From assembly GCA_043228905.1 (NCBI GenBank), contig JBHGNT010000016.1, positions 17,794,001-17,858,000 on the forward strand: a stretch of DNA of 64,000 bases. Direction: 5' to 3'. A program made the translations under genes and the position numbers. This DNA is from Azolla caroliniana. Its lineage: Eukaryota > Plantae > Polypodiophyta. The notes below the pieces were generated by a model that saw nothing but the letters and a program-made list of their open reading frames with translations, did not search any database and was not told the origin of the DNA. Shown piece by piece: positions 22,072-61,002 of the stretch (position 1 is its first letter; the number at the start of each line of letters is the position of its first letter).

Positions 22072-22144
22072 AATGACTAAGCCTAGTGGTAAGTCTATTG
22101 CCTCATATCTTGGAGGTGCAAGGTTCAACCCTTGCTTGCATCCC
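22072..22144 (+). promoter_or_regulatory. tRNA-like A/B-box cassette in element B LTR (second copy 29797-29868)
   Basis: TAAGCCTAGTGGTAAG...GGAGGT-GCAAG-GTTCAACC-CTTGC, T-run downstream. Confidence 0.65.
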
Positions 22145-25100
22145 TTTGATTACAAATTTTTAATAGGTTTTTTAGTCTAGATGATTTTGTTCGTTTCACA
22201 CCGAAATCGCCGCGATCAACCTATTCGATCGATCCGTCTATTCGGTCCGCTTTCGACCTGGTGATCTGGTCTATTCGTTCTGGTTCTGGTTCTGGTTCCA
22301 TCGCCGTCCGATTCCGCCAAAAACCATTACGAGTAGTTAAGCCACAATTTAGCCCAAGAACATTCAGTGCTCCACTCAGAGACAGAAAGTAATAAGTTTT
22401 GGCTCTGGTTATATAATGTGGGATTTTGATTTGTCCTATCTACGTGGGATATCTCATCTAAGTTTTGTTTTTCTCTTCTTCTCAAACTTCACATTCGCAT
22501 AACTTGACATTTATTTGTCCATTTCAAATGTAGTAAAGTACATTTGGAAGCTCTTGGAGACCTCCATCTTCCCATACCATGATATTCAGCTAATCTAAAA
22601 TAGTATCTTCACTATCATTGTTTCATGTCTTGTGTGAAGAACCACACTCGATTTTGGACATTCCTCGCAATTTTCACACCATTGCCGAAAATCTTCACGA
22701 CATTCACCCCCACCAAACCACACGTCCTCCGGTACGTGCTAAGAAGAGAGAGTGTGAGATTTTGGCTACGGTGATCAATCAGATTCCTCCACGTCCTCAT
22801 GTACATAACTCAAGTTTGTAGGCTCCGTCCTATTATCTTCATCGTCGAGGTGATCGAGGTTAGGATCCTCGTCTTGTCTTTTCTTGAAAATCTTTACTCT
22901 TTTTCGCGCAATGGGTATGGCCAACCTTGATCCATCTAGCTCCGCAAGGTGGTATGTGGCATTGTCGTCGACACTTATCACTACATATGGTCCGAACCAT
23001 CTTCTTGCAAACTTTCTTGTTGTACTGTGTTGCTTGTCAAGGCTGTTGTTGTAGACCAATACCCAATCTCCTTCTTCGATCTTCTTAGGGCGCAATCAAT
23101 GTGTCCTATCGAACCGAATCTTGTTCTTCACTCGGGCTGTCTCCATCATCTTTCGCACTTTTTCTAAATCTTCAGGCCTTCTTTCAAGCTGCCTTATCCA
23201 TGCCGCTAATAATTCTTCTCGGCTCATCTCGTTCTCCCATGGTATCGCTAACCATGAGACGATCATCCTTTCGATAGGCATTACCGGCTTTTGTCCATAC
23301 ATAAGCTTTGTCGGCATATACCCGATCACTGAATTGTGTGTAGTTCTGTCAGCCCACAAGGCATAGGGCAATAGTCATGGCCAGTTCTCGACTCGACCGT
23401 TGCATGCTCGTACGATGGCTTTGACGATTGGTCTATGCCCTCGCTCGATCTTCCCATTCGCTTCCGGATTGTAGGCAGTCGTGAGGGAGAGCTTCACGCC
23501 TAGTCGATCGAAGAGCTCTGTTGCTTCGCGTGCATCCAACTCCCCTCGATCAACCACTATCTTTCCCACACATCGGTATCGGTAGACAACCTCTTCGAGT
23601 AGAAATTTGCAAACTGTTGACGTTGTCTTATTTGTCAAGGCCCGTCCTTCTACTTGATTTGTCAAGTCTTCTCTTGCTAGAGCTAAGTACTTCATTTGTC
23701 CCACTCCCATTAGCACCTAAACCAGATCCACCATCCATTTGAAGTGTATGATGAGCGGGTATGTCGGCCGTAGCTCATCACGATGACGTATATTCGAATG
23801 TATTTGGCAAGTTTCGCATATGGACACGAAATGGAGTACATCTTTGTACATGCTTGGCCACCAATACTTCTCCTTCAACTTTTCGAATGTCGCCCATGTT
23901 CCTCTATGACCTACCCAAGGACTCTTGTGGAATTTGGTCATCAACGTCACTTGCTCTGCTTTCTTTACCACCACTTGACGTGGCATTCCTGTCCTGCCAA
24001 AGGAATCCTCCCCTCAAGAAGTATTGATAGGCTTTCTATCGAATTCGTAGAGCATCCTCCTTCGTAAATGAAGCATCCGTCGTCATTGTTCTTAAGAATC
24101 TGCCGATTAGTAACCACTCTCCTTCGTACTCTTCCTCGTTGAAGGCGTGGAGGGTTAGGGTGTCCTTGTCTTCTGCCGATAGTCGAGCCATCTTGAAGAA
24201 GCCAAGGGTGACATCTTCATCTTCCGAAACCATCTCACTTTCATTCTCAAATCTTGCCCTCGACAACATGTCAGCCATGACGTTCTTCTTCCCTGCAATA
24301 TGGCGGATCTCTGGGTTTAAAGACTTGATATAGGCGATCCACCTTAGCATAGCTAGATTTGGTGTCGCACATCCTGAGATCATCCCGAGGATTGGGAGAC
24401 AATCTGTCTCAATTATTACTTCCGACCCGATCAGGTAGTCTTTGTCCGTCTTCACTGCCGACATAATACCCCAAAGTTCCCGCTTGACTTGGGCGTATCT
24501 TTGTTGTCGTTCACTGAGAACCTTTGCTTCGAACCGGATGGCATACCACGCATTATCTTCTCCTTCTTGGTTGATGACCCACCCGATTCCGGCTGGGCTC
24601 ATATCTACAATCACATAAATCGGTTTCTCTTCGGTATAGTTGGCCTTTCTTAGTGCTGGAGCTTCAAGAAGTAGTTTCTTCAATCTTCGCATTGTGTTTG
24701 TGTGCTTGTCTCACCATTCAAACTTCATTCTTTTCTTTAGCAATCCATATAAAGGCTCAATGACATGAGCGTAGTGCGGAATCCATATATGATAAAACGC
24801 ACATGCTCCAAGGAACCTTCGTTTAGCATTCTTCTTTCATATCCTGGATTGCGTTCACCTTGGATGGCGAAGGCTTCCGGCCGTATGCTCCACACAAGTG
24901 ACCTACCACCAAGATCTCTGGTTGCTTGAATGCGGATTTTTCTCCCAAAACTGTCAAATTCACATCTTCAAGCCTTTAGAGCACCTTCTCGCAATCTTTC
25001 ATATGATCCGCGACGAACTTTCTACACCCTTCCTTATCTTTCGATTCATCCTTCTCCTCATCCGAACATCCTTTTATTGGAATATTATCCTAGAATGGCA

Positions 25101-25865
25101 TCGTGATGTCTGAGATGCAATCCTTCAAGACCTTGTTCTTGGCATTCAGCATATGAGCCACCGAGTTCGTTGCACCTTGAGGTAAGGTACATATTCACAC
25201 AAGCCCGATCGGAGTCCTCATGGTTGTAATGTCACGATTGTCGATCGTCAACTGGAATTGGTCATATCCGGAGTAGAGATCGCCAATGGAGTAGATAGAC
25301 TGACCCGCAGATGCTTCGGCAAATTCATACACACTTGGACCAATTCTAGCATTCCGAATTGTCACCTTGTTGACGGGTTGAAGATCTTGGATGAATCGCA
25401 ATGATCCATTCATCAACTTCGGTAGGTGTGCTCTGGGAACCGGTATCGGTTTCAAATTCCAAGGCACGTGCGGCACCGTGAAGATCACCATCGGTTCTAT
25501 CGTCCTTGGATCAGCATATCCGATTTATTGTGGGAAAAATGTGAAAGCCTTCCCATGTCTCTCAAGCATATCATGAAACATTTGCTCCTCTTTAGGGAGG
25601 AGGAAATCCTCCCTTCCAACTCGTAGCTTTCCTTTCGTCTCTTTGGTGAAGACATGACCTATTGCCTTTGGATCTCTTAAGCTTGGATCGTTAGCGACTT
25701 CCCTCATCTTTTGCCAACTATCTTCCAGTAGCGGAACCACAATTGGCTTGATCTTCGTATCCACCGTTTTAAATTTTGTGTTGATATCAACTTCCTTCAT
25801 CAAGATGCTTTGATGATATTCATCGATGATTGTGTACATGTTGATGGAGTTAACCGAAATCACGT

Positions 25866-58808: not shown

Positions 58809-60839
58809 GATGGAGAATCAACAAGAGGCGATGAACATGATGATAATGATGTTCGAGCGGATGCTACAAGAACAACGAGCAATGTCGGAGATCACGGGGG
58901 CAGTAAAGCGGCTCGTACAACGAAACGGGGAATTCAACGGTAAGGGTGTGTCACGCTACCTACGTGAATATAAGGCGGAGATGATGCAATATCGGATACC
59001 AGAAGGATTGCAAGTGATATCCTTTAGTCGGGTGGCCTCGGACGAACTACAAGAGAGAATCCACAAGATACAACAACAAAACTCGACATGGGAGTCCTTT
59101 GAAGAAGCTTTACGGGAGGCATATGACTATGAGAGATGGACGGGACGAGATTGACGAGAATTCAACGAATGGGTGGCGTCGGAGAAGACTCACCGAAGTG
59201 CAACGCAAGCGTTCCTAGAGTTCGAGCATCGTTTTGCTCGACTCTCGGAGCGGGAACGAAGATTGGTGGGAGAAGATAAAGTCTTAATGTTCGTAAGATC
59301 GATCGATCGGAAAGAAAGGATGGACATTGGGATCGAACTTGAAGATGATGACGGTGCGAAAGGCCTTACCGAGGATTGGGCCAAAGTCGAAAGGGTATGC
59401 CGAAGACATGATGAAAGGAAGCTGAGAATCTCGTCAACAACGACATGGCCCATGAAGGATGGTCGATTGAGGAAAAACGATGAAGCCAATATGAAGGCCG
59501 AAATACAACATGATGGTACCACGGGAGAAAGAGTGGAACAAGACACCCACTCGTCTTGTGAAAGAACGATGGCGAAGGATAAGGCCGATAATTCAAGTGT
59601 AGAAGGAAATTTCGGGATACAAGTGCCCGAGACATCGGGTCAAAAAGGGGTAAGCATAATAGATGTTTGCATAATTGATGCAGATAAAGAGTGTGAAGCG
59701 GATGTGATTAAGGAGGTAGCCACAAAAGACGAAATCGAATCGGAGGTGGCTATGGACGAATCAATGGCGGATTGCCATATCGAGACTTCCCCACCACTGA
59801 TTCCAGAGACTCCGGCAGTTGCGATCGAAAGGCAACGTGAGACCGAAGAGACGGAAGGTGGCGGAGAGAAAACGAATGTCGAAGCCGACGAATACGATGA
59901 AGAGATAGCCGAGAAGAATGCTAAGGGTGAAACTACGAAAGAAGGTAATACCGAGGATTCATGCCAACAATATCTAGAGACTTCGGCGGTTGTGTCCGAG
60001 AACCAACGTGAGACCGGAGAGACGGGAGATGGCGGCGAGGAAGGTAAAGTCGGAAGTCGGTTCGGATGGAAAATGATCCATCCGAAATTCCAATCTAAAA
60101 GAAAGTGCGACAATGCGGAGGTCGGGTCTACGACGGGAGAAGCGCGTAATACAGAGCATGCTCTACGGCGAATAAAGAAACGCGTGTTATGGCGAATAAA
60201 GAAGCACGCGCTACGGCGAGAAAAGAAGCATGCATTACAACCACACGAGGACCGAACAACGAGCACATATCGGAGGACCTACGTGGCGAACAACGGAAAG
60301 AAGTGCCGAAAGTCGAACGGACAAGGCAGATGAAAACGAAGAAAAGAAAGCAAATCCGGACGAAAAGAAAAGAAAAGAAACCGACCCGAAAGAGCACTGA
60401 ATCGGTAAAAACCGATCGACCGAGTCCGGATCGACCGAATACAAATCGGAAAGGAAGCCGAACTAAACGAAAGACGATCCGACGAGACCGAATCGGAAGT
60501 AAGCTAATCCGACTAAACCGAAAATCCGAAAAGAAGTCGAGATTGATGAAGAAAAGAAAGAGGGCAAGAAAAGATATTACCGCGGATCACAAGGACCAAG
60601 CGGGCCATGCAAAAAGCGAACGAAGACTATGGGGGATCGGATGTCGACAATGGTTCGGGTGGAAAGAATGGATGTGCTCCAAATGGAGAGACAAAGTCAA
60701 CATAACAAGAGAAGTCGAGGGTACTACGAGCCGGCAACGAAACCAATCGGGTAGAGACCGGACGGAGGAGACTAACAAACACCAACAACTTCGGCACATA
60801 CCGGAGGATGTGCGGGTTTGGAGGGGGCGAGTGTCGTAG
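58809..60839 (+). pseudogene. NA2 Gag-derived ORF (stop at 59152-59154, frameshift near 60190-60330)
   Basis: Pieces 58789-59154, 59173-60333 and 60189-60839 align to the NA1 ORF, including WFGWKEW..SKWRDKV. Confidence 0.7.
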
Positions 60840-60927
60840 TGTATTTTGTACACTACGTGAAAAACGTATATAGTATTAGATTCAAAAAAAAATGAAGAAA
60901 TAGAAGAAAATAGCAAAATAAATGGAA

Positions 60928-61002
60928 CATGCATAGGGCAAGATTCGAACCTTGCACCTCCATGTTAATAATGTAATGTCTTACCATTACACTAGCATTT
61001 CA
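60928..61002 (-). promoter_or_regulatory. tRNA-like cassette in NA2 LTR (second copy ~58141-58215)
   Basis: GCTAGTGTAATGGTAAG...GGAGGT-GCAAG-GTTCGAAT-CTTGC, T-runs downstream. Confidence 0.7.

What the first reader, a model, noticed from the sequence alone, without database searches (positions are those of the whole stretch)
22072..61002. Antisense tRNA-like Pol III cassette in every LTR of a Gypsy lineage
Seen: all nine LTRs of five LTR types (B, solo, A, NA1, NA2) hold a ~70-nt tRNA-shaped block at 22072, 26234, 29797, 32155, 38411, 54745, 57514, 58141 and 60928. It has an A box (TGGCCTAGTGG, TAGCATAATGG, TAGTGTAATGG), a GGAGGT variable-loop-like segment, a B box GGTTCGAAT in a T-arm hairpin, and T-runs downstream. 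It is always antisense to the element and upstream of the LTR TATA box. A-type and B-type LTRs share little else. The hairpin covaries (GCAAG/CTTGC vs GTAGG/CCTGC) while the anticodon and acceptor arms do not hold. Established: TFIIIC binds A/B boxes; tDNAs act as chromatin barriers in yeast and mammals; Cassandra TRIMs carry 5S sequence in their LTRs. Inference: a captured tRNA/SINE head kept as a TFIIIC-bound insulator or antisense Pol III promoter, possibly protecting the LTR promoter inside heterochromatin. I know of no description of this for protein-coding plant Gypsy LTRs, but did not search.
Basis: partly seen in the sequence, partly recalled or inferred. Interest (0 to 1): 0.85.

Follow-up and report, generated by a model that had tools for sequence, protein, structure and literature searches.

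The report
tRNA promoter boxes inside retrotransposon LTRs
The end repeats of a family of plant jumping genes carry a decayed, likely tRNA-derived stretch whose promoter-box cores and spacing have outlasted the sequence around them, so it likely serves as an optional docking site for the cell's tRNA-gene transcription factor beside the element's own promoter rather than making a tRNA.

Summary
The block is real: 9 of 9 LTRs carry it, antisense, upstream of a TATA-like box. The elements fit the Phygy clade of Ty3/Gypsy (4-bp NCGN target duplications). Of 94 related LTR starts fetched by a block-independent motif, 35 carry it, all antisense. Between A-type and B-type LTRs the box cores keep 74-89% identity and a 43-nt spacing, while spacer, flanks and pol silent sites are at chance: evidence of selection.

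Three first-reader claims fail. The hairpin does not covary. The block is not in every LTR: 9 of 54 clusters were read to the primer site without one, and a close relative has it deleted. It is not always antisense: 3 clusters carry sense modules. B-box C56 is T in 11 of 38 blocks. No expression or binding data were available.

Best reading: an optional, orientation-flexible DNA site, probably for TFIIIC (0.45). Closest known: Helenus TRIMs, but these elements are long and protein-coding. The scan noted similar relics in four other genomes.

The parts
22073..22148 (+). A/B-box block in 3' LTR of element B (A box 22079-22089, B box 22122-22131); antisense to element
26228..26304 (-). block in solo LTR (A box 26288-26298, B box 26246-26255, C56T); antisense
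29798..29873 (+). block in 5' LTR of B (A box 29804-29814, B box 29847-29856)
32157..32234 (+). block in 3' LTR of A (A box 32164-32174, degenerate; B box 32207-32216, C56T)
38413..38490 (+). block in 5' LTR of A (A box 38420-38430; B box 38463-38472, C56T)
54748..54825 (+). block in 3' LTR of NA1 (A box 54755-54765, B box 54798-54807; both match consensus)
57517..57594 (+). block in 5' LTR of NA1 (A box 57524-57534, B box 57567-57576; both match consensus)
58139..58214 (-). block in 5' LTR of NA2 (B box 58155-58164, C56T: the only difference between the two NA2 LTRs)
60926..61001 (-). block in 3' LTR of NA2 (A box 60984-60994, B box 60942-60951; both match consensus)
21825..30457 (-). Element B: 5' LTR 29323-30457, PBS 29299-29314, degenerate gag-pol, PPT region 22700-22734, 3' LTR 21825-22702 (truncated); nested in a Copia
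25866..26752 (+). solo LTR related to B, inserted in B's pol, 4-bp TSD ACGT, TATA-like box 26448-26456
31625..38584 (-). Element A: LTRs 37881-38584 and 31625-32328 (98.4% identical), PBS 37861-37876, gag-pol in several broken frames (RT, RNase H, integrase Zn finger), TSD ACGT
54222..57690 (-). NA1: pol-less element with gag-like ORF, LTRs 56991-57690 and 54222-54921 (99.7%), PBS 56971-56986, 4-bp TSD CCGC in element sense
58045..61558 (+). NA2: pol-less element with gag-like ORF, LTRs 58045-58771 and 60832-61558 (99.9%), PBS 58776-58791, TSD GCGT

Best explanation
These Phygy-type Ty3/Gypsy LTRs carry in U3 a decayed, likely tRNA-gene-derived module whose box cores and 43-nt spacing are conserved while the rest has randomised, and it most likely acts as an optional DNA docking site for TFIIIC that tunes the neighbouring Pol II LTR promoter. 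Shown: position, orientation, selective conservation, loss of the cloverleaf, presence in pol-bearing and pol-less elements, sense modules in related families, absence or deletion in others. Inferred: (1) capture of a tRNA gene with its terminator, from a T4 run 21-25 nt after the B box in 18 of 38 blocks and tRNA-Pro-like geometry; (2) TFIIIC binding; (3) the effect, by analogy with yeast tDNA and ETC sites: nucleosome phasing, a barrier to silencing, or a roadblock to read-through into the 5' LTR. The same site lies inside the element's own transcript at the 3' LTR, so a strong Pol III unit would likely be costly there; that may favour the weak boxes seen. It cannot drive the genomic RNA, because here it points away from the element.
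For: A-type vs B-type identity (12 x 9 blocks): ARTGGTAAG 0.84, TGGAGGT 0.89, B box 0.74; spacer 0.30 (chance 0.29), upstream 0.34 (0.34), downstream 0.35 (0.32). Pol four-fold sites between window A and B agree at 58 of 195. A-to-B spacing is 43 in 36 of 38 blocks and 44 in 2, while the distance from LTR start to B box runs from 92 to 611 nt. In 18 A-type LTRs the gap fraction is 0-0.03 across the block and 0.06-0.45 in the other bins beyond the first 20 columns. G18, G53, T54 and T55 are invariant in 23 of 23; R9, Y11, R15 and R57 never leave their class. No covariation, so the constraint is on sequence, not fold. Other A/B modules sit in the same U3 zone in sense orientation (L059/L040 score 29, L054/L114 26, L105 25; 0 of 324 shuffles reach 23), in both pol clades. 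L105's sense module matches the antisense model at E 3.3e-5. Yeast precedent for boundary, phasing and roadblock effects: PMC4228148 (passages).
Against: C56, whose mutation severely lowers TFIIIC binding in yeast (PMC4228148), is T in 11 of 38 blocks, including both LTRs of element A and contigs whose names give coverage 104 and 15; it changes 7 times on the tree. Among 18 A-type LTRs the CpG decayed to the damaging form in 8 and to the harmless form in 1, the opposite of what selection for binding predicts. Only 5 of 38 blocks match both consensus boxes; the 15 a-priori box positions are only marginally slower than the rest (2.8 vs 3.75 changes, p=0.08), and the strong contrast (p=2e-7) is for a core chosen after seeing the data. 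Conserved bases include TAAG and GGAGGT, outside the canonical boxes. Nine clusters read to the PBS have no module. L042 (coverage 143 in its name), 76-83% like the solo LTR on both sides, lacks the block.
Confidence: 0.45

Rival explanations
1. The module came from a tRNA gene but is now read by Pol II transcription factors as an upstream enhancer of the LTR promoter; the conserved words matter, not TFIIIC.
For: The best-conserved words (TGGTAAG, GGAGGT, GGTT) include non-box bases; C56 changes freely. The block lies 148-338 nt upstream of the TATA-like box.
Against: Near-invariant 43-nt spacing and absence of indels. Several unrelated-looking modules in other families again have A-box/B-box form at 42-44 nt, which a generic enhancer would not need.
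Confidence: 0.2
2. It is an active Pol III promoter that makes a short antisense RNA (about 85-130 nt) from U3, regulating the element in cis or trans.
For: All 35 profile hits among 94 LTR starts are antisense. A T4 run follows the B box within 13-64 nt in 32 of 38 blocks. NA1 and the NA2 3' LTR have consensus boxes.
Against: Sense modules in 3 clusters. No T4 within 120 nt in 6 of 38 blocks. The transcribed spacer is at chance identity and no structure covaries.
Confidence: 0.15
3. Neutral passengers: tRNA pseudogenes or SINE heads were captured into AT-rich U3 several times, and the shared boxes reflect the common form of tRNA genes, not selection in the LTR.
For: Patchy presence, deletion in L042, flips and doublings. 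A fetched tRNA-Pro gene has the same 43-nt spacing and matches the cores at 0.65-0.70 with its spacer at chance, so separate captures could mimic part of the pattern. Repbase holds 'not a few' LTRs with tRNA-like parts (PMC10886601).
Against: A- and B-type blocks also share the bases flanking the B box (0.49 and 0.67 against chance 0.35 and 0.33) where tRNA-Pro matches at 0.24 and 0.40, pointing to one origin. Within the B type alone the cores stay at 0.85-0.93 with the spacer at 0.66. A passenger should not survive saturation of pol silent sites.
Confidence: 0.17

Closest known systems
Helenus / TRIMp3 (Kojima 2024, PMC10886601; main text parts 1-5 of 6 read, supplement passages seen)
   Same: [quoted passage not shown]
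   Different: Helenus are non-coding TRIMs of 311-1263 bp; the LTR consensus sequences I saw carry the tRNA part in sense, and it is proposed to drive the genomic RNA. Here the elements are 3.5-8.6 kb with gag or gag-pol, the LTRs 700-1135 bp have a TATA-like box, and the block is antisense in the window. The paper expects autonomous partners to use Pol II promoters and analysed only elements under 1000 bp.
Cassandra and Ajax TRIMs (as described in PMC10886601; the original Cassandra paper not read)
   Same: Pol III promoter sequence captured in an LTR and conserved.
   Different: 5S-derived, non-coding; Cassandra's transcript starts in the 5S part of the 5' LTR and runs through the element, which an antisense block cannot do.
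Phygy clade of non-chromovirus Ty3/Gypsy (Neumann et al. 2019, PMC6317226; passages and one supplement row seen)
   Same: 4-bp NCGN target duplication (100% of 186), tRNA-Trp PBS (81%), mean length 8628 bp, no extra ORFs.
   Different: The passages seen do not mention a tRNA-like module in the LTR.
Yeast tDNA barriers and ETC sites (PMC4228148; passages seen)
   Same: Product-independent roles of TFIIIC-bound DNA next to Pol II promoters; includes a tRNA pseudogene (ETC9) that fixes a neighbouring start site.
   Different: Host chromosomal sites with demonstrated binding; here the site is carried by a mobile element, binding is untested and C56 is often lost.

Membership tests
Phygy | 4-bp TSD with NCGN motif | tested here: met
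   ACGT (A, solo), CCGC (NA1), GCGT (NA2): 4 of 4 with both ends; B has ACGT on its one intact side (criterion)
Phygy | tRNA-Trp primer-binding site | tested here: inconclusive
   Same PBS after 4 of 4 5' LTRs. It differs at one of 16 bases from an insect tRNA-Trp PBS printed in PMC10886601's supplement; no plant tRNA-Trp was fetched, so the isotype is partly recalled
Phygy | Gypsy domain order, no chromodomain or extra ORF, 7.7-10 kb | tested here: inconclusive
   RT, RNase H, integrase in order; no chromodomain among Pfam hits. B about 8.6 kb with its solo insert and truncated end; A 6960 bp, below the published range
Phygy | Phylogenetic placement with reference Phygy RT/RH/INT | not testable with these tools
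   No REXdb reference sequences on hand; named hits are liverwort and fern proteins at 59-66%
Helenus / TRIMp3 | tRNA-like sequence with A and B boxes in the LTR | tested here: met
Helenus / TRIMp3 | Short (<1.3 kb), no protein coding | tested here: not met
   3.5-8.6 kb, gag-like or gag-pol ORFs
Helenus / TRIMp3 | Pol III promoter oriented to make the genomic RNA | tested here: not met
   Antisense in 9 of 9 window LTRs; the sense modules of relatives are followed by T4 within about 30 nt
Functional tRNA gene | Cloverleaf with paired acceptor, D, anticodon and T stems | tested here: not met
   ARAGORN and Rfam negative; stem pair counts
Recent SINE insertion | Own TSD, body and tail; copies outside LTRs | tested here: inconclusive
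   None seen in 383 kb searched, but that DNA was fetched for being near LTRs and no genome was held; one weak match at 19257-19310, E 0.012
Pol III type-2 promoter | Consensus A box and B box at tRNA spacing | tested here: inconclusive
   Spacing kept in 38 of 38; perfect A 13, perfect B 22, both 5 of 38
tDNA/ETC-type barrier | TFIIIC occupancy and boundary activity | not testable with these tools
   No ChIP or reporter data available

The most novel reading that the evidence does not exclude
Protein-coding Phygy retrotransposons captured tRNA-gene promoters into U3 more than once, flipped and doubled them, and keep them as portable TFIIIC docking sites that shield or set their own Pol II promoter: a selfish use of the Pol III machinery as an insulator by autonomous LTR elements.
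Probability: 0.3. Interest if true: 0.8.

Novelty: new variant of a known kind. Interest (0 to 1): 0.5.

Why it matters
tRNA- and 5S-derived LTR sequences have been explained as the promoter of tiny non-coding elements. Here the module sits in long, protein-coding elements and faces the wrong way, so that explanation cannot apply, yet it is conserved past the saturation of silent sites. If TFIIIC binds it, high-copy retrotransposons would be spreading candidate chromatin boundaries through a plant genome, and natural variants (intact, C56T, deleted, flipped, doubled) make the question of whether TFIIIC sites insulate in plants directly testable. If not, it is a tRNA promoter re-read by other factors, or a long-lived passenger.

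Tried and rejected
No whole genome is held, so no genome-wide copy analysis and no proper search for free SINE copies.

Viral contigs: 6 PBS-pattern matches were unrelated, and a pol query found nothing.

Expression: no RNA holder listed. One guessed-RNA run gave a single contig on the U5 end. This says nothing for or against transcription.

Laying genomic contigs on the NA1 LTR: the B-box bin is a local depth peak in 3 of the 3 runs that cover it, but summed contig depth is not a conservation measure. The narrower call listed variants only between 57549 and 57566, so it did not reach C56.

RNA-structure function: rejected for lack of covariation.

Rescue of C56T by the palindromic B box on the other strand: holds for 1 of 11 such blocks by inspection; rejected as a general explanation.

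A second, sense-strand A box facing the same B box in some B-type LTRs scores 17-18, inside the shuffle range (16-27%); not claimed.

tRNA-gene targeting of insertions: the window's elements are nested in other retrotransposons; not supported.

A resemblance to the tobacco Tto1 13-bp motif was recalled; only a search listing was seen; not used.

Host identification by the flanking DUF630/632 gene found nothing. 'Non-seed plant, probably a moss' is an inference.

Literature: ten searches showed no paper describing this module in Phygy LTRs, judged from listings. Repbase and most subscription journals were not searchable; the supplement of bioRxiv 10.64898/2026.03.01.708851 (main-text passages only) was not seen.
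Full report
ANATOMY. Self-comparison and inspection give five insertions. B (minus strand, 21825-30457) has a truncated 3' LTR. 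A solo LTR (25866-26752) sits inside B's pol. A (minus, 31625-38584) has LTRs 98.4% alike and gag-pol in broken frames with RT, RNase H and integrase domains. NA1 and NA2 are pol-less 3.5-kb elements with LTRs 99.7% and 99.9% alike, so they moved recently. Target duplications are 4 bp and CG-centred in 4 of 4 complete insertions, and all four 5' LTRs are followed by the same PBS. Neumann et al. 2019 (PMC6317226; passages and one supplement row) give 4-bp NCGN and a tRNA-Trp PBS as marks of Phygy, described from Physcomitrella. Named pol relatives are liverwort and fern proteins at 59-66%. The host is probably a moss; that is inference.

THE OBSERVATION. All nine blocks exist, antisense, upstream of a TATA-like box. 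An untrained A/B-box scan puts 7 of 9 at the level of the window's two tRNA-Lys genes, which two shuffled windows never reach; the two A copies score in the chance range. The quoted B box occurs in 3 of 9. ARAGORN and Rfam do not call any block.

RELATIVES. With no genome held, I fetched LTR starts by a motif just upstream of the 3' LTR, independent of the block: 123 stretches, 125 matches. Eleven loci were dropped as chance or atypical matches and one as a duplicate, leaving 112; 94 had at least 100 nt of LTR. A profile seeded with five window blocks hit 35 of 94 at E<1e-3, all antisense. These and the window LTRs form 54 clusters, 20 with the block. The untrained scan added a diverged antisense module (L075/L055, score 21, borderline) and three clusters with sense modules (L059/L040, 29; L054/L114, 26; L105, 25; none of 324 shuffles reached 23). 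L121/L124 carry two antisense modules. Nine clusters were read through to the PBS with no module; the other 21 are truncated or were not read to the end. L042, a complete LTR 76-83% like the window's solo LTR on both sides, lacks about 145 nt covering the whole block. Nearly all loci come from one run of assembly accessions and are not independent samples.

TREE. On integrase trees (26 and 45 rows, X at breaks) the antisense block occurs in two well-separated clades, one with window A and one with window B. Each has a sense-module family nearby (L054; L009/L040/L059), and block-less families (L013 group, L046) lie between or beside them. I did not test a root or an order of events; one old capture with losses and flips, LTR exchange, and repeated capture all remain open.

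SELECTION. Between 12 A-type and 9 B-type blocks the two 5' cores and the B box are 0.84, 0.89 and 0.74 identical, while the 17-nt spacer (0.30) and both flanks (0.34, 0.35) equal chance; pol four-fold sites between window A and B agree at 58 of 195. Recent exchange would have kept the spacer, and neutral inheritance would have erased the cores. Spacing is 43 in 36 of 38 blocks and 44 in 2, though the distance to the LTR start varies from 92 to 611 nt. Caveats: the 38 were chosen by profile similarity, flank identities were computed without gaps, and within the A type the contrast is small (cores 0.83-0.93, upstream flank 0.73). A fetched tRNA-Pro gene shares the 43-nt spacing and matches the cores at 0.65-0.70 but not the T-stem sides; only two isotypes were compared.

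STRUCTURE. Acceptor, D and anticodon stems fail, and the canonical T stem keeps 3 of 5 pairs. The constraint is on DNA words, not fold.

AGAINST A STRICT TFIIIC SITE. B-box states in 38 blocks: 8 TTCGA, 17 TTCAA, 11 TTTGA (C56T), 2 other. C56 changes 7 times on the tree; 5 of 38 blocks match both consensus boxes; the a-priori box positions are slower than the rest only at p=0.08. Part of the C56T load is decay after insertion: it is the single difference between the NA2 LTRs. But both A LTRs and high-coverage contigs carry it, so it can be propagated. G10 looks variable (14 of 23) partly because five B-type rows fit a 12-nt A box one base upstream (by inspection).

MECHANISM. Best supported: an accessory DNA element in U3, most likely bound by TFIIIC, acting on the adjacent Pol II promoter as yeast tDNAs and ETC sites do (phasing, barrier, roadblock; PMC4228148, passages). 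Confidence 0.45. Shown: conservation, position, dispensability, flexible orientation. Inferred: origin, binding, effect. Rivals: Pol II enhancer (0.2), antisense Pol III RNA (0.15), neutral passenger (0.17).

COMPARISON AND NOVELTY. Helenus TRIMs (PMC10886601; parts 1-5 of 6 and supplement passages) already show tRNA-like A/B boxes in LTRs, and that paper notes that 'not a few' Repbase LTRs hold tRNA-like parts. These elements fail two Helenus features (short and non-coding; promoter oriented to make the genome). Ten searches showed no description in Phygy; a Physcomitrium TE expression paper (PMC7466625, passages) does not use the terms Phygy, SINE or polymerase III. The scan's own notes list four similar relics in other genomes (unchecked) and none for this sequence. 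Verdict: real, selected, new variant of a known kind; function untested; interest 0.5.

Noticed in passing
window 20018-21352: Repeat cluster with two tRNA-Lys(TTT) genes (20270-20342, 21193-21265; the second has C56T) and decayed copies; the LTR of the enclosing Copia (21352-21662, partner 40214-40524) starts about 90 nt from it.
   Followed up: no
window 22700-22734, 32326-32361, 54919-54954, 60799-60834: A motif just upstream of the G-rich PPT is kept across A, B, NA and the relatives it fetched, though pol silent sites are saturated; possibly a packaging or priming signal.
   Followed up: partly
L028, L029, L034, L082: Four A-type 3' LTR starts lose similarity 84-104 nt in, just before the block; no clear poly(A). 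Could be assembly joins, deletions or transcripts ending at the block.
   Followed up: partly
L047, L079, L100 (U3): In some B-type LTRs an inverted repeat surrounds the near-palindromic B box and a weak second A box faces it from the sense strand; scores are within the shuffle range.
   Followed up: partly
window 19257-19310: Weak match to the block model (E 0.012) outside any recognised LTR; decayed copy or chance.
   Followed up: partly
L011 542-1466; L029 near 3307-3334; L037 3629-3646: Three tRNA-Pro genes about 490 nt or more beyond a block-less Phygy LTR; further tRNA-like A/B pairs near two other Phygy ends.
   Followed up: no
window 52788-63998: A second, different Gypsy element hosts both NA1 and NA2; several Copia elements occupy 30373-53400.
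   Followed up: no
window 3928-10741: Host gene with DUF630 and DUF632 domains.
   Followed up: no
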